From positions 1 to 64,000 of the IMG/VR virus record IMGVR_UViG_3300042691_047309: a stretch of 64,000 nt of DNA; one strand, given 5' to 3'. The stretch comes from a virus. Below are positions 1 to 55,260 of the stretch, one piece after another. The notes below the pieces were generated by a model. That model had not been told where the DNA came from. It did not search any database and saw only the letters and a program-made list of their open reading frames with translations. Positions within the stretch are counted from its first letter, which is position 1; every line of letters begins with the position of its first letter. Both the position numbers and the translations under genes were made by a program.

Positions 1-20
1 ATTTTATATATATTTGCATT

Positions 21-497
21 ATGAATTTAAAAGAACCATTTGTTATACTTCTTGTTGGTCCAACTTTATCGGGTAAATCTACCTGGATAAGAAATAACTA
101 TCCAAATGTAAATGTTATTTCTAGAGACGAAATAGTTATGGAAGTTGCTGGAACCAGAGATTATAATAAAGCATTTAATACTGTTGATCATAAGTTAGTT
201 GATAAAGTTTTAGCAGAAAGACTCACCGAATCAAACTCCAATAAAACATCGACTATTGTTGATATGACAAATATGACAGTAAAAAGAAGAGAACAAACTT
301 TGAGATATTTTGACGATAGTTTTTACAAAGTTGCTGTTATATTTCCTATACTTTCTGATGATGAATATCAAAAGAGAAACATCGATAGAAATGCAAAAGA
401 GAATAAGTGGATACCACCAACTGTTATTAAATCAATGATTGATTCTTATCAAGAGCCTACTACTGTAGAGGGATTTGATAATATTATTTCTCTATAA
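21..497 (+). CDS. P-loop kinase, AAA_33 / polynucleotide-kinase-like
   Basis: Walker A GPTLSGKS, ISRDEI, IVDMTN, and a lid-like RNxxR, as in T4 Pnk-type kinase domains. Confidence 0.75.
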   Translation: MNLKEPFVILLVGPTLSGKSTWIRNNYPNVNVISRDEIVMEVAGTRDYNKAFNTVDHKLVDKVLAERLTESNSNKTSTIVDMTNMTVKRREQTLRYFDDSFYKVAVIFPILSDDEYQKRNIDRNAKENKWIPPTVIKSMIDSYQEPTTVEGFDNIISL

Positions 498-2686: not shown

Positions 2687-2709
2687 TTTTTCATTTTTTT
2701 CTTAAAATA

Positions 2710-2741
2710 TTTGGTGAAATTAAATTCTTGCCTTATCTTTG
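2710..2741 (+). promoter_or_regulatory. Bacteroidota-type promoter for the tRNA-Tyr-like gene
   Basis: TTTG-N20-TATCTTTG. Confidence 0.75.
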
Positions 2742-2754
2742 TATTCACAACGAT

Positions 2755-2842
2755 GGGGAAGTTCCAGAGCGGCAAATGGAGTTACATAGTAATGTGACTG
2801 GTCTCAAAAGATCTTCGGTGGTTCGAGTCCAACCCTTTCCCA
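2755..2842 (+). tRNA. atypical tRNA-Tyr-like gene (8-nt anticodon loop ATAGTAAT, bulged T-stem)
   Basis: Acceptor GGGGAAG/CTTTCCC+A, Tyr-type D arm CCAGAGCGGCAAATGG, long variable arm, TTCGAGT T-loop. Confidence 0.7.
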
Positions 2843-2862
2843 CAAAATAAAATAAAAAAAGA

Positions 2863-2894
2863 TTTGGTAGATTGAAAAAGTTTACTTATCTTTG
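2863..2894 (+). promoter_or_regulatory. Bacteroidota-type promoter for a small structured RNA
   Basis: TTTG-N20-TATCTTTG. Confidence 0.75.
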
Positions 2895-2900
2895 TAAAAC

Positions 2901-2982
2901 AAATCACGGGTGGCTCCCTTAATAGTTAAGGCTGACCTTAAGCATCCACCGAGAGGTATACAGGGGCGAAAGTGATTTTTTT
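2901..2982 (+). ncRNA. unassigned ~80-nt structured RNA, possibly pseudoknotted
   Basis: Closing stem AAATCAC/GTGATTT, hairpins TTAAGG-CTGA-CCTTAA and ACC-GAGA-GGT, crossing pairings GGGTG/CATCC and TCCCT/AGGGG; own promoter and 3' T-run. Confidence 0.6.
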
Positions 2983-3064
2983 AAAATTAGACATTTAAGA
3001 TAGCCTAATCGGAAACAAATCGGAAACGTCTGATATAAGTTAAACAAAAATTTTTACAAAAAGA

Positions 3065-3096
3065 TTTGGTCAAAATAAAAAAAGTTCATATCTTTG
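3065..3096 (+). promoter_or_regulatory. Bacteroidota-type promoter for the tRNA-fMet / large ncRNA operon
   Basis: TTTG-N20-TATCTTTG. Confidence 0.75.
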
Positions 3097-3134
3097 TAAA
3101 ACAAATAAGAAATAAGAAATATAAAAATACACAT

Positions 3135-3207
<73 letters not shown>

Positions 3208-3213
3208 CAAAGA

Positions 3214-3258
3214 GTTCTCAACGGAGAACAACGTTCTTTGACATATTGATCTTTAACA
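3214..3258 (+). promoter_or_regulatory. rRNA-leader-like boxB hairpin plus tandem boxA antitermination sites
   Basis: Hairpin GTTCTC-AACG-GAGAAC, then GTTCTTTGACATATTG and TGATCTTTAACA (one mismatch to E. coli boxA TGCTCTTTAACA). Confidence 0.5.
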
Positions 3259-4090
3259 GTCGGTTTCGACTGACTGTGAAAAGAAGGGCGGCTTATAGTC
3301 CTTAAAATAAACCGTGAAAGCGGGATAAAGTAAATAGAATAGCTAAATCTGTTTGCGTCTTGAATCTTCGGATTTGAGGTCGAGTAAGCAAGTGGGACAC
3401 CACAAAACCTTATTAGTCGAGGGTAACACTGTAGATGAAATGGATTTGTGACCAGGCAATTGTAGTTGTTTGGTTGACCTCGGAAGAGGAATAGGATTAA
3501 CCCATAGGATTGTTGCAAGAAGTAGTGACTCACCGGTTGTTATCATTGCGGAATCCAACTTAATAGGTATCTTAAAGTTGAAAGACAATCATTCGTACAG
3601 GTGGTGCTGTTGTTTGACACTTTTCTCTCTACCAGGGGAGTTATGGTGAAGATATCTTGAAGAGTTGTGGTGGAGGCATCACACGGAGTAGTTCAGTATT
3701 CTTGAGGTCAAAAGCTTTGAGAGCTGAGAGGTAACCACTACTTCGACACAATCTACAAAGCACTAAATTTCACTATTAATGAAACATTTAAAAAGGAAAT
3801 CAAAAGTGTTACCTAGTTACTGATGAAAAGTACCTACTTAGTCGTGAGTGTTCACGGCCACTGAAGCTCGAAAGGCTGATGTGATTTCATCGAAAAGCTT
3901 ATAGAGGGTCGAACCTCGAGTCAGCTCGCAAGGTTGAGTAAGTGGATTAAATGGAGAGTAATTAGTAACTTAAGGAGTGGTTAGTCTAACTAACCGGTAC
4001 TGACAGAGTACTTCTCAAAAGGAAGTGGATAAGAAGGGAAACCATAATCTAACAAAAGTTCTGTCGTAATAAGGTGTAATCTCAACCTTT
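3256..4090 (+). ncRNA. large ornate ncRNA, GOLLD-like
   Basis: ~840 nt, richer in GC than its flanks, no plus-strand ORF, many UUCG/GNRA hairpins (ACAGTCGGT-TTCG-ACTGACTGT, CCGT-GAAA-GCGG, CCTC-GGAA-GAGG), inside a phage tRNA cluster; boundaries approximate. Confidence 0.65.
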
Positions 4091-4093
4091 TCT

Positions 4094-4140
4094 GGTCGGT
4101 TCATAGGAACCTCTGAGAGCGAGACTCAGACCGACCTCAA
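4094..4140 (+). ncRNA. minimal tRNA-like element (acceptor + T arm only)
   Basis: 7-bp GGTCGGT/ACCGACC stacked on 5-bp CTGAG/CTCAG with a 7-nt loop, then N-CAA as in neighbouring tRNAs. Confidence 0.5.
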
Positions 4141-4220
4141 AGTTTTCGTAGTGGTTAACTTCCCTTTAATTAGGGAGTCTGTCATAGACAGGATGGGTAC
4201 TTAACCCCATACTAAATCTT

Positions 4221-4326
4221 GGCCCGTTCGTCTAGAGGACTCTTAAAAGAGATACAGAAACTTTGTGAACGTAGAGGACGCCTAACTTTTCATTAGGAGA
4301 CATGGGTTCGAATCCCATACGGGCTA
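4221..4326 (+). tRNA. tRNA with Glu-type body, ~33-nt D-loop insertion and register-shifted anticodon loop
   Basis: Acceptor GGCCCGT/ACGGGCT, D-stem GTCT/GGAC, anticodon arm CCTAA-CTTTTCA-TTAGG, T arm ATGGG-TTCGAAT-CCCAT. Confidence 0.75.
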
Positions 4327-4383
4327 CTTATTTCTTTTATTTATAATATCAGATATATTCAAAATTTATGTATAATAAAATAT

Positions 4384-4487
4384 GGTCCTTTAGCTCAGTA
4401 GGTTAGAGCAACTGACTCTAAGTGTTATAAGTAAATTAACACAACGTTATAATCAGTAGGTCCACGGTTCGAACCCGTGAAGGACCA
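4384..4487 (+). tRNA. tRNA with Ile-type body and a 30-nt insertion in the anticodon loop
   Basis: Perfect acceptor GGTCCTT/AAGGACC, normal D and T arms, stem ACTGA/TCAGT enclosing 37 nt instead of 7. Confidence 0.85.
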
Positions 4488-4488
4488 C

Positions 4489-4519
4489 AAATCCATCAAA
4501 AAATTTGGTGGGTTTTTTT
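4489..4519 (+). terminator. intrinsic terminator of the RNA cluster, overlapping the next promoter
   Basis: ATCCATCAAA/TTTGGTGGGT stem plus T-run; TTTG-N20-TATATTTG at 4504-4535. Confidence 0.6.
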
Positions 4520-4540
4520 ATTTTTATTATATTTGTTATT

Positions 4541-51313: not shown

Positions 51314-51904
51314 TTACATTTCACCGAATCTTTTGATTCTAAAAATAGATCCGATGTTATTTAATTTAGCCTTTATCTCATTTAAGAGCAAAAGGTGTGT
51401 TCTGTTAAATTGTCTATGTTTCTCAATATCATCAACTATTCTCCAAGTTTCTTCAAAGTATTTGTTTCTGAATCTTTCATTGGCTGTAAAAGCATCTGAT
51501 ATGTTTTGTAGTCTATCTGCTAATTTGATAATAAGAGCATCATCAGACATTTCTATCATTTTATCTGACAAGTAAGCCGCTTTATCATTTTGATAAACCT
51601 TTTCTATTTCTTCTTTTGAAGAAGTTAATTCAGCAACTAATCCACCAACTCTACTTCCAAAAATCTCAGAGATTTCATGTAAGCCTACTTCTAAGTCGTC
51701 GTAACAATCTTCTGCAACATCATGTAAGATGGATGCACAAAGAATATCTTCATCTGTTGTATGTTGTTTAACAATAGCATTTACTTTTTTAACATGTGCA
51801 TCAAAATAAGGAAGTCCGATAAATCTCCTTACTTGTCCTTTATGTGCTGATTTGGCAAACTTCCAAGCCTCGGTTTCTTTTCTTGTTATTGGTCTATTTG
51901 GCAT
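51314..51904 (-). CDS. HD-domain (p)ppGpp hydrolase-like (Mesh1/SpoT-type small alarmone hydrolase)
   Basis: AHKGQVR, PY..H, LHDVAED, IKLADRLQN. Confidence 0.8.
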   Translation of the reverse strand: MPNRPITRKETEAWKFAKSAHKGQVRRFIGLPYFDAHVKKVNAIVKQHTTDEDILCASILHDVAEDCYDDLEVGLHEISEIFGSRVGGLVAELTSSKEEIEKVYQNDKAAYLSDKMIEMSDDALIIKLADRLQNISDAFTANERFRNKYFEETWRIVDDIEKHRQFNRTHLLLLNEIKAKLNNIGSIFRIKRFGEM

Positions 51905-53038: not shown

Positions 53039-53279
53039 TATATCAAATAGAGTTTCAGAAACTAGACTTTTCAAAGAAAGAAGGAGTTTAGGAATTGAAT
53101 TTTGCTGGGAAACAGCAACTGAAGCTGTATTTTCCAGACCAGAAGATGATTTAGATATATTAGGTGAATATTACTTAATTGAATCTTTTTCAACCGGTGT
53201 TATTTCAGTCACTGACATAAAAGGAAATGTCTTAGATAAAACTGATAGAATCTTAAATTTATTTAGACTTGGTGTTTGA
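53031..53279 (+). CDS. hypothetical protein
   Basis: Coupled ORF. Confidence 0.55.
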   Translation: MSNISNRVSETRLFKERRSLGIEFCWETATEAVFSRPEDDLDILGEYYLIESFSTGVISVTDIKGNVLDKTDRILNLFRLGV

Positions 53280-53693
53280 TTTTTCCGATTTATAGCTCTC
53301 AATAACTCTCATTCTTAATTCAGTTGTAGAAAATGAATGTTTTCTTGAGTTATAATACATTTCAATATGTTCTAACTCTTTTCCTGTAAAATCTTTATCC
53401 TTATACTCTTCTCCTACAACTCTTATATTTATTGGATATGAATGTAGAATATCTAATAAATCTTTTTCAGTTGCATAGACTACAACCTCATCTACATATT
53501 TACAAGCTTCTAATTGAATAAACCTTTCAACAACAGATTGAATTGGTTTGTTTTTTTCAGGTCTATCAATAGTAGGGTCAGTTTGTAATCCTACAATTAG
53601 ATAATCACAAACCGACTTTGATTCCTTTAACATCATAATATGACCTGCATGAAATAGGTCAAAACATGAGCAAGTAAATCCTACTTTTTTCAT
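53259..53693 (-). CDS. TagD-like cytidylyltransferase
   Basis: FDLFHAGH (HxGH), VGEEY, RKHSFSTT. Confidence 0.85.
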   Translation of the reverse strand: MKKVGFTCSCFDLFHAGHIMMLKESKSVCDYLIVGLQTDPTIDRPEKNKPIQSVVERFIQLEACKYVDEVVVYATEKDLLDILHSYPINIRVVGEEYKDKDFTGKELEHIEMYYNSRKHSFSTTELRMRVIESYKSEKSNTKSK

Positions 53694-53881
53694 AGTGACT
53701 TTTTAATTTGTTTTGGTAGTTGTTCATTTGATAACTCAAATTCTCTAATACCACTTCTAGTATTACTCACCATTAAAAATTTAAAATTGAAACTATCATT
53801 AGTTTTTGTTCTAACATGATAGTATTCGTCAATTGATCCACTTGTGTGAATTGTTCCTAAATGTTTTTTATCTGTATTCAT
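53690..53881 (-). CDS. small hypothetical protein
   Basis: ATGA-coupled to the cytidylyltransferase gene. Confidence 0.5.
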   Translation of the reverse strand: MNTDKKHLGTIHTSGSIDEYYHVRTKTNDSFNFKFLMVSNTRSGIREFELSNEQLPKQIKKSL

Positions 53882-53940
53882 ATCTTTTTTATGATAATTT
53901 TTACAAAAGTTTTCACTATATTTGCAGAATATATAACTCT

Positions 53941-55260
53941 ATGAAGTTATTCAGATATATGGAATTTATAAAAGAAAGCGTTACTCAATACTCTATACCT
54001 TCTTATGAAGAGGCGGTTGAGATGTGCTCTAAACCAGATGCTGCTTTTTATGAATCAAAAACTGAAGTTGATGGTTTTCCAATAAGCATCTTCAATTATA
54101 GACTTGCTCAATTTAGTGATTTTAATCTACCATTGGAGAATAAACCAGAAGTTAAAGCTTTTGAAATGAGAGGTCTTACTTTTGTTTTTAATAAAGATGG
54201 TTCTCTTTATAAAAGATTTGTGCTACTTGAAAAGTTCTTTAACTTGAATCAAGTTCCTAATTCTATGTATTCTGTTGTTAAAGATTACAAAATTCGTTAT
54301 GTTAATAACAAAGAAGATGGTTCTATTGCTTCATTTATTCAATTACCAAATGGAAAGATTATAGGTCGTTCTAAAATGGGGTTTGATAATGACCAAGCAA
54401 ATGGTATAAACAAAATCTATAAAACAAATGCGGATATAAATCAATTTGTTAATTGGTGTTTATCACAAGACATAACTCCGATATTCGAGTATGTCGCGCC
54501 CCACAACCGTGTAGTTTTAAGATACTCACAAGAAGAGCTGATACTTTTAAGACTAAGAGATAACAAGACCGGAAAACATATCGATATCAAAGACCATTTA
54601 GATAAAATTGGTTCAATTAAGATTGCACCTTTTGAGGATGACCACACTTTGGATGACCTAATTGAAAAGTCAAAAACTGAAGCAGAGAGAGAAGGATGGA
54701 TTGTTCAGTTTGATAATGATCACATGCTTAAAATCAAAACTGATTGGTATTGCCAAAGACACGGACTTTTAACAAATGACATTTATAGAGAACATATTAT
54801 TATAGGATATATCTTAGATGATAAGATTGATGATATTTTAGGTCAAATTCCTGAGGATGAAAAAGAAGCACACGAAAGAATACAAAAGATAATTTCAATT
54901 GTTAAAAGAGAAATTAACAATTTAGTTTCACAGATGAATTCTGCTTACTCGGAATTTGTTAAGTCAGGTGCTGATAAAAGAGATTATGCTATTAATCATA
55001 GAGTTGGAAATCCTAACTTTCATTTTGTTATGAGTATGGATAAATATGATAAATTAAAATCTATGTCTAAAGAAGATATATTAGAGTATTATGATTCAGT
55101 TGAAGCTTGGGAAAAGGCAATTGAAAAATATCAACCTTATAACTTAGCTGTTGAGACAATAAGAGATAAAACTAAGAGATTGGAAATAGCCAGAGAATGG
55201 TTAGAATCAAAAGATCCTGGATTATTTTTTAGAGATCCAGAAGAGTCAGAGGAGAATTAA
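53941..55260 (+). CDS. T4 Rnl1-like RNA ligase with N-terminal tag
   Basis: Start moved to MKLFRYMEFIKES; EMRGL, KFFN, motif I KEDGS, FEY, EGWIV, KIK. Confidence 0.85.
   Translation: MKLFRYMEFIKESVTQYSIPSYEEAVEMCSKPDAAFYESKTEVDGFPISIFNYRLAQFSDFNLPLENKPEVKAFEMRGLTFVFNKDGSLYKRFVLLEKFFNLNQVPNSMYSVVKDYKIRYVNNKEDGSIASFIQLPNGKIIGRSKMGFDNDQANGINKIYKTNADINQFVNWCLSQDITPIFEYVAPHNRVVLRYSQEELILLRLRDNKTGKHIDIKDHLDKIGSIKIAPFEDDHTLDDLIEKSKTEAEREGWIVQFDNDHMLKIKTDWYCQRHGLLTNDIYREHIIIGYILDDKIDDILGQIPEDEKEAHERIQKIISIVKREINNLVSQMNSAYSEFVKSGADKRDYAINHRVGNPNFHFVMSMDKYDKLKSMSKEDILEYYDSVEAWEKAIEKYQPYNLAVETIRDKTKRLEIAREWLESKDPGLFFRDPEESEEN

What the first reader, a model, noticed from the sequence alone, without database searches (positions are those of the whole stretch)
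4221..4487. Two tRNAs interrupted at different sites by ~30-nt inserts with a shared signature: a candidate new mini-intron class
Seen: the Glu-type D-loop insert reads GACT|CTTAA..TACAGA-AAC-TTTGTG-AACGT. The Ile-type anticodon insert reads GACT|CTAA-GTGTTA-N9-TAACAC-AACGT. Both have the same 5' junction, a 6-bp hairpin of different sequence, and the same AACGT after it. Removing 4242-4274 (33 nt) and 4418-4447 (30 nt) restores 73- and 74-nt tRNAs. Known: bacterial tRNA introns are large self-splicing group I; protein-spliced ones use bulge-helix-bulge, which I could not build here. Inference: a protein-dependent, non-BHB phage tRNA splicing system or a tiny mobile insertion.
Basis: partly seen in the sequence, partly recalled or inferred. 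Interest (0 to 1): 0.87.

Follow-up and report, generated by a model that had tools for sequence, protein, structure and literature searches.

The report
Hairpin mini-inserts in two phage tRNAs

Summary
Both interrupted tRNAs are real. The interpretation needs correcting.

- **tRNA 2 (4384-4487):** this is a tRNA(CAU), Ile2 or elongator-Met type. Uninterrupted homologues (72/74 identical exons) and BLAST breakpoints place the 30-nt insert at 4419-4448, between C34 and A35.
- **A recurrent class:** I found 16 interrupted tRNA(CAU) genes (15 distinct) in viral and metagenome contigs. Each has one 21-42-nt hairpin at this junction. There were none among 185,579 prokaryote species genomes. Two are homologous to the window's insert, with a covarying stem and a conserved loop.
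- **tRNA 1 (4221-4326):** this is a Glu-like tRNA fused behind a GOLLD RNA. Relatives carry D-loop hairpins of 0-33 nt at the same spot. Two closer relatives keep this exact insert.
- **The shared signature fails:** GACTC is exon sequence in tRNA 2. AACGT is not conserved in homologous inserts. Such word sharing occurs in 3.5% of shuffles.
- **Known mechanisms:** no bulge-helix-bulge, no group I core, no EndA or RtcB. A T4 Rnl1-type ligase and a Pnk-like kinase are encoded.

This scan has noted similar mini-inserts on other phage DNA.

The parts
3135..3208 (+). Intact initiator-type tRNA(CAU). It has a C1 mismatch and three G-C pairs in the anticodon stem. It is the first gene of the RNA cluster.
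   Evidence: ARAGORN; Rfam tRNA 66.2 bits.
3684..4088 (+). Conserved 3' domain of a GOLLD RNA. The variable 5' part probably starts near 3256.
   Evidence: Rfam RF02032, 291 bits, E 1e-83, full model.
4094..4140 (+). Remnant of Glu-like tRNA copy A. The acceptor and T arm are kept; the D and anticodon arms are deleted.
   Evidence: Same acceptor (GGTCGGT...ACCGAC) and same position as the full-length copy A in L001, L039 and L041. Also present in L046 and L047.
4141..4220 (+). Conserved structured spacer between Glu-like copies A and B.
   Evidence: Begins GTTTTCGTAGTGGTTAAC. Present in L001, L039, L041, L046 and L047.
4221..4326 (+). tRNA 1: a Glu-like tRNA (copy B) with an expanded D loop and the anomalous anticodon loop CUUUUCA.
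   Evidence: ARAGORN with introns allowed. Clean cloverleaf after deleting 33 nt. 97% column identity to L046 and L047, with two compensatory T-stem pairs.
4240..4272 (+). D-loop insert of tRNA 1 (33 nt, boundaries about +/-2). It holds hairpin CTCT-TAAA-AGAG (4240-4251), hairpin 4253-4258/4262-4267, then AACGT.
   Evidence: Fold. Relatives carry 0, 16, 20, 22 or about 33 nt at the same place after G18 G19 N. The insert is almost invariant in L046 and L047.
4384..4487 (+). tRNA 2: an elongator-type tRNA(CAU), most likely the AUA-reading tRNA-Ile2, interrupted inside the anticodon.
   Evidence: Rfam tRNA 61.8 bits with insertion. Exons are 72/74 identical to uninterrupted tRNA(CAT) genes of L050, L101, L107 and L109.
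4419..4448 (+). 30-nt insert between C34 and A35: TAA, stem 4422-4427, loop TAAGTAAAT 4428-4436, stem 4437-4442, tail AACGTT.
   Evidence: Alignments of uninterrupted homologues break at 4418/4449. Homologous inserts in L151 and L153/L155 have three different Watson-Crick pairs at stem position 4.
4489..4525 (+). Intrinsic terminator that closes the RNA cluster.
   Evidence: Terminator scan: 12-pair stem followed by a T run.
53833..55260 (+). T4 Rnl1-type RNA ligase (the tRNA anticodon-loop repair ligase family). Candidate for the sealing step.
   Evidence: Pfam PF09511 74.8 bits. PHROG 562, E 7e-62. Genome search.
3..497 (+). C-terminal P-loop kinase domain of the polynucleotide-kinase class. 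The ORF is cut by the contig end. Candidate for the 5'-end healing step.
   Evidence: Pfam AAA_33 68.3 bits and KTI12. PHROG 505 'polynucleotide kinase', E 4.6e-14.

Best explanation
The window holds two different kinds of hairpin-type intervening sequence in phage tRNA genes. It does not hold one class with one signature.

**tRNA 2.** This is a tRNA(CAU), probably the AUA-reading tRNA-Ile2. Its anticodon is split between C34 and A35 by a 30-nt hairpin. The insert belongs to a recurrent, phage-restricted family of 21-42-nt single-hairpin inserts at exactly this junction. In every member the seven anticodon-loop bases (CUC / AUAA) lie on the two strands between the anticodon stem and the inserted hairpin, mostly unpaired.

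The tRNA helices and the insert hairpin are kept by compensatory changes, so the interrupted gene is in use. The anticodon cannot work while split. I therefore infer that the hairpin is removed from the RNA by protein enzymes:
1. An unidentified endonuclease cuts at both feet of the hairpin.
2. The halves stay held together by the anticodon stem.
3. They are healed and sealed by the phage's Pnk-like kinase and T4 Rnl1-type ligase, the pair that mends anticodon-loop breaks in T4.

**tRNA 1.** This is a Glu-like tRNA that always sits directly behind GOLLD RNA. Its D-loop hairpins are a lineage-variable expansion at one fixed spot. They are either removed by the same route or kept in a tRNA-like RNA.

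**Shown:** the gene anatomy, the exact junction, recurrence, selection, and absence of BHB, group I, EndA and RtcB.
**Inferred:** the removal itself, the enzymes involved, and the Ile2 identity.
For: - **Junction.** Intact homologues have the loop CTCATAA. Exon identity is 72/74. BLAST breaks at 4418/4449.
- **Recurrence.** L043, L118, L123, L129=L135 and L138. L142, L143=L144, L145-L151, L153=L155 and L154. Every insert folds as one hairpin.
- **Restricted to phages.** 0 true cases among 185,579 species genomes. The metagenome loci tested (L146, L150, L155) carry phage protein families.
- **Selection on tRNA 2.** All 81 pair cells are standard. 7 pairs change on both sides, against 2.4 in shuffles (0 of 500 shuffles reach the observed value). 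The insert stem pair takes the forms UA, GC and AU. The insert is 77-80% identical where the exons are 77-89% identical.
- **Selection on tRNA 1.** The insert has one G.U-to-G-C change and one loop deletion, while the T stem has two compensatory pairs.
- **Sealing enzymes.** An Rnl1-type ligase and a Pnk-like kinase are present. Rnl1 is also found in 2 of 5 other records, including the only near-complete one.
- **Codon fit.** AUA makes up 29 per 1000 codons. The other intact elongator tRNAs are Leu(UAA) and Arg(UCU), the set expected for an AT-rich phage.
Against:
- No endonuclease candidate was found. No protein family is shared by the neighbourhoods of 3 or more interrupted genes.
- Predicted cut-site geometry differs between members: 0-6 unpaired bases on the 5' side and 2-10 on the 3' side. 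One structure-specific nuclease is therefore not obvious.
- Rnl1 and Pnk are common in large phages for tRNA repair, so their presence is weak evidence.
- tRNA 1 also has an abnormal anticodon loop and a decayed sister copy. That fits a non-decoding tRNA-like role, in which the D-loop hairpins would simply stay in the RNA.
- No protein-based tRNA splicing is known in bacteria or their phages.
Confidence: 0.5

Rival explanations
1. The inserts are retained. Both RNAs are non-decoding tRNA-like molecules. They could be processing handles for RNase P and RNase Z at the 3' end of GOLLD, partners or cargo of the GOLLD cage, or decoys for host tRNA-targeting enzymes. On this view the hairpins are functional expansion segments.
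For: - tRNA 1 and its relatives always lie 5-10 nt behind GOLLD.
- Copy A in this phage is reduced to an acceptor/T-arm minihelix.
- The anticodon loops of the Glu-like and Tyr-like tRNAs carry one extra base across relatives.
- D-loop hairpins vary freely in length and sequence, as expansion segments do. One has a GNRA loop.
- The loop of the tRNA 2 insert (TAAGTARRT) is conserved in sequence, which a mere spacer would not need.
Against: - The interrupted tRNA(CAU) genes are not linked to GOLLD.
- Their exons stay nearly identical to working tRNA(CAU) genes, including all seven anticodon-loop bases. A non-decoding RNA would not need that.
- A decoy should keep the loop its target recognises intact.
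- This phage has no other elongator tRNA(CAU), although AUA is frequent.
Confidence: 0.28
2. The interrupted genes are dead or dying. A short selfish or accidental DNA insertion destroyed them. Examples would be the scar of a lost larger intron or homing element, or an insertion that shields the site from a homing endonuclease. The similarity to intact tRNAs would then only reflect recent events.
For: - The window's exons are closer to an uninterrupted gene (97%) than to the homologous interrupted genes (89% and 77%). The insert therefore moves, or is gained and lost.
- This scan has notes (unchecked) that phage tRNA(CAU) genes are known targets of homing endonucleases and group I introns.
- tRNA 1 has a decayed sister copy next to it.
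Against: - Compensatory changes occur in every tRNA helix and in the insert stem among three diverged interrupted genes.
- The tRNA 1 insert is nearly invariant while its flanks and T stem changed.
- There is no other copy of either insert in the 176-kb contig.
- At least 15 independent genes keep perfect loop halves CTC and ATAA.
Confidence: 0.13
3. The inserts are archaeal/eukaryal-type introns, removed by a splicing endonuclease at a bulge-helix-bulge. Alternatively they are miniature self-splicing introns.
For: ARAGORN in intron mode models tRNA 2 with a 30-nt intron at the canonical 37/38 position.
Against: - The 37/38 register would give CUA, which contradicts the homologues.
- At the true junction, the central 4-bp helix of a BHB has 0-3 of 4 pairs in all 16 genes, in either orientation.
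- Exhaustive search finds no BHB whose removal restores a tRNA.
- There is no EndA or RtcB in the contig.
- There is no Rfam intron or ribozyme hit.
- 30 nt is far below any known self-splicing core.
Confidence: 0.03

Closest known systems
'Enigmatic' introns in tRNA genes of Lak megaphages (Devoto et al. 2019, Nat Microbiol, PMC6784885)
   Same: - Non-group-I intervening sequences in the anticodon loop of tRNA genes of very large phages.
- Conserved between related phages.
- Present or absent between strains.
- Mechanism unknown.
- Software miscalls the junction by a base or more.
   Different: - Lak inserts are 79-114 nt. In the published Table S6 they contain a tRNA-like acceptor/T-arm module.
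- They lie after the anticodon.
- The window's tRNA 2 insert is a bare 30-nt hairpin inside the anticodon (34/35).
- The tRNA 1 insert is in the D loop.
Archaeal/eukaryal protein-spliced tRNA introns (bulge-helix-bulge, EndA/TSEN plus RtcB or Trl1)
   Same: - Short introns (from about 12 nt upward) without ribozyme activity.
- Found in anticodon loops and, in some archaea and red algae, in D loops.
- The intron extends the arm as a helix.
- Removal is by cut-and-ligate.
   Different: - There is no BHB at the junctions.
- The junction is 34/35, not 37/38.
- No EndA or RtcB is encoded.
- The host domain is Bacteria.
T4 tRNA restriction-repair (host PrrC cuts tRNA-Lys 5' of the wobble base; T4 Pnkp and Rnl1 heal and seal)
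   Same: This phage encodes an Rnl1-type ligase and a Pnk-type kinase domain. A break in the anticodon loop held together by the anticodon stem is the natural Rnl1 substrate. This rests on established knowledge of T4 Rnl1.
   Different: Repair restores a broken mature tRNA and removes nothing. Here two cuts and the loss of a 30-nt hairpin would be needed, and no nuclease is known for that.
Group I introns in bacterial, plastid and phage tRNA anticodon loops (e.g. tRNA-Leu(UAA) at 34/35, Azoarcus tRNA-Ile(CAU))
   Same: They interrupt the anticodon loop of tRNA genes, including CAU tRNAs, and some sit between positions 34 and 35 (from my own knowledge).
   Different: These introns are 200 nt or longer, with a P3-P9 catalytic core. 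The inserts here are 21-42 nt single hairpins with no Rfam intron match.
GOLLD RNA with neighbouring or embedded tRNAs (Rfam RF02032; Kretsch et al. 2024 preprint, doi 10.1101/2024.12.08.627333)
   Same: GOLLD here lies in a tRNA cluster, downstream of a Met tRNA, as described for env-38 GOLLD.
   Different: I did not find the constant Glu-like tRNA directly at the GOLLD 3' end, with D-loop hairpins and an 8-nt anticodon loop, described in the papers I read.

Membership tests
Hairpin mini-inserts at C34|A35 of phage tRNA(CAU) genes (a class seen here and in earlier notes of this scan; unpublished as far as I found) | The exons rebuild a full tRNA with loop CTC+ATAA when the insert is removed. 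| tested here: met
   Window minus 4419-4448 gives a 74-nt tRNA(cat). It is 72/74 identical to intact genes.
Hairpin mini-inserts at C34|A35 of phage tRNA(CAU) genes (a class seen here and in earlier notes of this scan; unpublished as far as I found) | The insert is one short hairpin (about 20-45 nt) placed between the anticodon-loop halves CUC and AUAA. | tested here: met
   Constrained folds of 16 genes. The window gene folds as a 3x3 internal loop, 3 bp, a 4-nt bulge, 6 bp and a 9-nt loop.
Hairpin mini-inserts at C34|A35 of phage tRNA(CAU) genes (a class seen here and in earlier notes of this scan; unpublished as far as I found) | The insert is removed from the RNA (this is what would make it an intron). 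| not testable with these tools
Bulge-helix-bulge (archaeal/eukaryal) tRNA introns | Two 3-nt bulges that hold the splice sites, separated by a 4-bp helix. | tested here: not met
   The central helix has 0-3 of 4 pairs at the required register in all 16 genes, in both orientations. No BHB-like site restores a tRNA in either window gene.
Bulge-helix-bulge (archaeal/eukaryal) tRNA introns | Splicing endonuclease (EndA, PF01974) and RtcB ligase (PF01139) are available. | tested here: not met
   No match in the 176-kb contig. The contig is about 73% complete and the host genome is unknown, so absence is not proof.
Group I self-splicing introns | A catalytic core of roughly 200 nt or more that covariance models recognise. 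| tested here: not met
   The inserts are 30 and 33 nt. There was no Rfam intron or ribozyme match at gathering or E<=1 thresholds.
Lak-type 'enigmatic' phage tRNA introns | A non-ribozyme insert in the anticodon loop of a tRNA gene of a large phage, conserved among relatives. | tested here: met
   True for tRNA 2. tRNA 1's insert is in the D loop instead.
Lak-type 'enigmatic' phage tRNA introns | Length of 79-114 nt with an internal tRNA-like T-arm module (my reading of Table S6 in PMC6784885). | tested here: not met
   The window inserts are 30-33 nt hairpins without a T-loop motif.
   - Absent from 15 other interrupted tRNA(CAU) genes, including the homologous inserts (ATTGT, AACAA).
- Absent from D-loop inserts of L001, L039 and L041.
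- The only other genomic match is a terminator.
- Chance level is 3.5%.
T4 Rnl1 family RNA ligase (window 53833-55260) | Match to the family profile above the curated cut-off. | tested here: met
   PF09511 scores 74.8 bits against a cut-off of 28.3. PHROG 562, E 7e-62. Activity on these tRNAs was not tested.

The most novel reading that the evidence does not exclude
Large bacteriophages have a protein-based, non-BHB tRNA splicing pathway. It excises bare hairpins from tRNA loops: between anticodon bases 34 and 35 of tRNA(CAU), and possibly from the D loop of GOLLD-linked tRNAs. An unknown nuclease cuts, and a T4-type Pnk/Rnl1 pair seals. The split anticodon would keep the precursor invisible to MetRS, to anticodon nucleases or, at DNA level, to homing endonucleases until it matures.
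Probability: 0.42. Interest if true: 0.9.

Novelty: new variant of a known kind. Interest (0 to 1): 0.72.

Why it matters
Protein-dependent tRNA splicing is regarded as a trait of archaea and eukaryotes. Bacteria and their viruses are thought to have only self-splicing introns in tRNAs.

Here there is a conserved, recurrent family of 21-42-nt hairpins that split the anticodon of phage tRNA(CAU) genes. Selection acts on both exons and insert. The inserts have no ribozyme and no BHB. Two outcomes are possible:
- an undescribed cut-and-rejoin route exists in phage-infected bacteria, which would give T4-type RNA repair enzymes a maturation role; or
- these are a new kind of non-decoding tRNA-like RNA.

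Either outcome is directly testable with one RT-PCR.

There are practical consequences too. tRNA finders miss or misname these genes: the window gene is called amber suppressor 'Pyl(cta)' and others are called Leu, Lys or Glu. That can create false evidence of stop-codon recoding in phage genomes.

The constant Glu-like tRNA at the 3' end of GOLLD also gives a handle on how that RNA is processed.

Tried and rejected
- **Amber suppressor reading (CUA, 37/38).** I rejected this. ORF statistics show no TAG recoding, and the homologues have CAT.
- **UAU reading.** Rejected on the same comparison.
- **Mobile multi-copy element.** Neither insert has another copy in the contig. The one extra GACTCT..AACGT match is a bidirectional terminator.
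- **Target-site duplication.** AGAGGAC flanks the tRNA 1 insert. Removing one copy plus the insert leaves a 3-nt D loop without G18 G19, so I rejected it as a transposon footprint.
- **Conserved neighbouring nuclease gene.** All-against-all BLASTP of ORFs around 16 interrupted genes found no family shared by 3 or more loci.
- **GOLLD as a general partner of interrupted tRNA(CAU).** No GOLLD lies within about 5 kb in five other loci.
- **TilS.** None in the contig.
- **Wide pattern for Ile-like tRNAs with inserts.** This mostly retrieved eukaryote-type tRNA-Ile(UAU) introns of giant viruses, which are not relatives.
- **Wasted scan.** One viral scan returned nothing because I set the gap too short. 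The corrected scan found only the two known relatives.
- **Ile2 versus Met naming.** Annotated phage records say only 'tRNA-Met', which does not discriminate.
- **Literature.** One paper search timed out. The others found no description of hairpin mini-inserts in phage tRNAs beyond the Lak paper.

Full report
**Setting**

The window is the first 64 kb of a 175.9-kb IMG/VR phage contig (29.5% GC, about 73% complete). Standard code 11 fits. Reading TAG as sense adds only about 3% to long-ORF length, and TAG ends 14 of 163 long ORFs.

An RNA gene cluster lies on the + strand:
- a Tyr-like tRNA with an 8-nt loop (2755-2842);
- an intact initiator tRNA (3135-3208);
- a GOLLD RNA (3684-4088, Rfam 291 bits);
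- a 47-nt acceptor/T-arm minihelix (4094-4140);
- an 80-nt conserved spacer;
- tRNA 1 (4221-4326);
- tRNA 2 (4384-4487);
- a strong terminator (4489-4525).

The nearest public relatives are uncultured huge phages LR745206 and LR756502 (about 74% identity over the GOLLD region).

**Observation**

Standard ARAGORN misses both genes. With introns allowed it reports Glu(ttc) with a 41-nt intron and 'Pyl(cta)' with a 30-nt intron. Rfam's tRNA model matches tRNA 2 at 61.8 bits across a 32-nt insertion. After in-silico deletion both give clean 74-nt cloverleaves.

**tRNA 2: where the insert sits and what the gene is**

I scanned IMG/VR for its 5' third and retrieved 69 loci. All full-length members are uninterrupted. 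Those with the same D arm carry the loop CTCATAA, apart from a few Asn(GTT) genes.

L050, L101, L107 and L109 share the same anticodon stem (ACTGA/TCAGT) and 72 of 74 exon bases. Only the split CTC | ATAA rebuilds that loop. BLAST alignments of six uninterrupted homologues stop at window 4418 and resume at 4449.

The insert is therefore 4419-4448, between C34 and A35. The gene is an elongator-type tRNA(CAU).

I favour tRNA-Ile2 over elongator Met for three reasons:
- AUA is 29 per 1000 codons (34% of Ile codons).
- The phage's other intact elongator tRNAs are Leu(UAA) and Arg(UCU), the usual AT-rich supplement.
- From memory, the body resembles Bacillus and E. coli tRNA-Ile2. That is a lead, not a test.

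Database annotations say only 'tRNA-Met'.

**tRNA 2: a recurrent class**

I used patterns that require the Ile/Met-type D arm, 'CT(C)', 12-45 free bases, '(AT)AA' and the T arm. They found interrupted tRNA(CAU) genes in:
- IMG/VR: L118 (35 nt), L123 (28 nt), L129=L135 (37 nt) and L138 (20 nt, at 34/35 or 35/36);
- huge phage LR756502: L043 (31 nt);
- JGI/ENA metagenome contigs: L142 (22), L143=L144 (21), L145 (28), L146 (25), L147 (38), L148 and L149 (26, related), L150 (42), L151 (30), L153=L155 (30) and L154 (21).

The same pattern over one genome for each of 185,579 prokaryote species gave three hits. All three are duplicated tRNA pieces, not inserts. The metagenome loci I checked carry phage protein families.

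Every insert folds as a single hairpin that leaves the seven loop bases flanking it. Several of these loci hold further tRNAs with long hairpin-extended anticodon arms.

**Selection**

L151 and L153/L155 carry inserts homologous to the window's. They have the same length and begin with TAR. The stem is GTGNTA/TANCAC, the loop is TAAGTARRT, and a 6-nt tail follows.

On the three-sequence alignment all 81 pair cells are standard pairs. Seven pairs change on both sides, against 2.4 in shuffles (0 of 500 shuffles reach the observed value). Slid controls fall to 32-43% paired. The fourth pair of the insert stem is U-A, G-C and A-U in the three sequences.

Insert identity (77-80%) matches exon identity (77-89%). 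The window's exons are closer to an uninterrupted gene (97%) than to the interrupted homologues. The insert has therefore been gained, lost or moved between tRNA(CAU) genes.

**tRNA 1**

Relatives show that GOLLD is followed within about 10 nt by one or two Glu-like tRNAs: copy A (acceptor GGTCGGT) and copy B (GGCCCGT). A conserved spacer separates them. The window's 4094-4140 minihelix is what remains of copy A.

These tRNAs keep the tRNA-Glu D stem. Their anticodon loop is C-UUUUC-R-G, either 8 nt or 6 bp plus 6 nt. The window lineage has the 7-nt form CUUUUCA, which ARAGORN reads as Lys(ttt) with C37.

Directly after G18 G19 N the D loop carries:
- nothing (L002, L039 copy A);
- a 16-nt hairpin (L001 copy B);
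- 20 nt (L001 copy A);
- 22 nt (L040/L041);
- about 33 nt with two hairpins (L039 copy B, and the window).

L046 and L047 are the closer relatives (their neighbouring flavoprotein is 81% identical). They have the window's insert with one substitution, which turns a G.U pair into G-C, and one loop deletion. Meanwhile the T stem shows two compensatory pair changes and the spacer differs widely. The insert is therefore constrained. Its boundaries cannot be fixed from DNA alone. By analogy with relatives I give 4240-4272.

**The proposed shared signature**

- GACTC in tRNA 2 consists of stem bases 30-31 plus C32 U33 C34. Intact tRNA(CAU) homologues with the same anticodon stem carry it too.
- AACGT is ATTGT in L151 and AACAA in L153.
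- None of the other interrupted genes or D-loop inserts has the words.
- A shared 6-mer between two arms of this size is expected in 47% of shuffles. A 6-mer plus a downstream 5-mer in order with similar spacing is expected in 3.5%.
- The only other genomic match is a terminator.

I conclude that the signature is coincidental or at most lineage-specific, and that the two inserts are two phenomena.

**Mechanism**

Group I is excluded by size and by Rfam.

BHB is excluded. At the true junction the central helix has 0-3 of 4 pairs in all 16 genes in either orientation. An exhaustive search finds no BHB whose removal restores a tRNA. The minimum-energy fold of the window arm has its bulges staggered the opposite way from a BHB.

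The contig has no EndA, RtcB or Rnl2-type ligase. It does encode a T4 Rnl1-type ligase (53833-55260) and a Pnk-class kinase domain (3-497, cut by the contig end). Rnl1 is also present in 2 of 5 other records with interrupted genes, including the only near-complete one.

A split anticodon cannot decode, yet the genes are maintained. I therefore think removal by an unknown nuclease, followed by Pnk/Rnl1-type sealing, is the most likely route (about 0.5). Retention as a non-decoding tRNA-like RNA is the main rival (about 0.28). It is stronger for tRNA 1 than for tRNA 2. Gene death is unlikely given the compensatory changes (about 0.13).

**Comparison with what is known**

The closest published case is the 'enigmatic introns' of Lak megaphage tRNAs (PMC6784885). 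Those are 79-114 nt, lie after the anticodon, and contain a tRNA-like module. I found no paper describing bare hairpin inserts at 34/35 or in D loops of phage tRNAs. A 2026 jumbo-phage review does not mention them.

This scan's own earlier notes report similar 21-37-nt inserts at 34/35 in phage Ile2 and initiator tRNA(CAU) genes on other DNA. I treat those notes as leads. My searches reached the same class independently.

**Verdict**

The 'signature' is not. tRNA 2 adds a well-supported member, with covariation, to an apparently unpublished class of phage tRNA mini-inserts. tRNA 1 reveals a GOLLD-linked Glu-like tRNA with a variable D-loop expansion.

Noticed in passing
L120 13587-13679; also L121, L122, L125, L127, L131, L137: These are tRNA-Ile-like genes with two tandem anticodon-arm-like hairpins after position 26. 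The first has loop CTTATAC (UAU) and the second has loop CTGATAA (GAU). The first stem covaries between contigs. This is either a 20-nt hairpin insert at 26/27, or a class-II-like tRNA whose long variable arm is an old anticodon arm.
   Followed up: no
window 2755-2842 and 4221-4326; L001 1130-1217, 2586-2680, 2764-2853; L002 2639-2712; L039 851-925: GOLLD-cluster Tyr-like and Glu-like tRNAs carry one extra base 5' of the anticodon. The loops read N-U-x-GUA-A-N' and N-U-x-UUC-R-N', with N and N' complementary. ARAGORN therefore reports 2-base 'anticodons'. The feature is conserved across diverged phages, so it is selected and not decay.
   Followed up: partly
window 4094-4140: The 'mini-tRNA' after GOLLD is the remnant of Glu-like tRNA copy A of relatives. 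It has the same acceptor stem but has lost the D and anticodon arms. It is kept in L046 and L047 too, which suggests the acceptor/T-arm minihelix is what matters there (an RNase P/Z handle for the GOLLD 3' end?).
   Followed up: partly
window 4141-4220: A conserved 80-nt structured spacer (GTTTTCGTAGTGGTTAAC plus two hairpins with compensatory changes) lies between the two Glu-like tRNAs in the window, L001, L039, L041, L046 and L047. It has no Rfam family.
   Followed up: no
L123 1997-2104; L146 6670-6788 (-); L150 4824-4930; L042, L044: Further phage tRNA genes have an anticodon arm replaced by a long, nearly perfect hairpin (33-55 extra nt). No anticodon loop can be recognised, so the isotype cannot be read from DNA.
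   Followed up: no
window 3214-3235: The hairpin GTTCTC-AACG-GAGAAC after tRNA-fMet is also followed by AACGTT. AACGT occurs 4 times in 2700-4520, against 0.27 per kb genome-wide. The word is not conserved at this place in L046 or L001, so this is probably the local composition of the G+C-richer RNA region.
   Followed up: partly
window 53259-53693 (-), 51314-51904 (-): A cytidylyltransferase-like gene and an HD-domain gene lie beside the Rnl1-type ligase. This may be a small RNA/nucleotide-processing neighbourhood.
   Followed up: no
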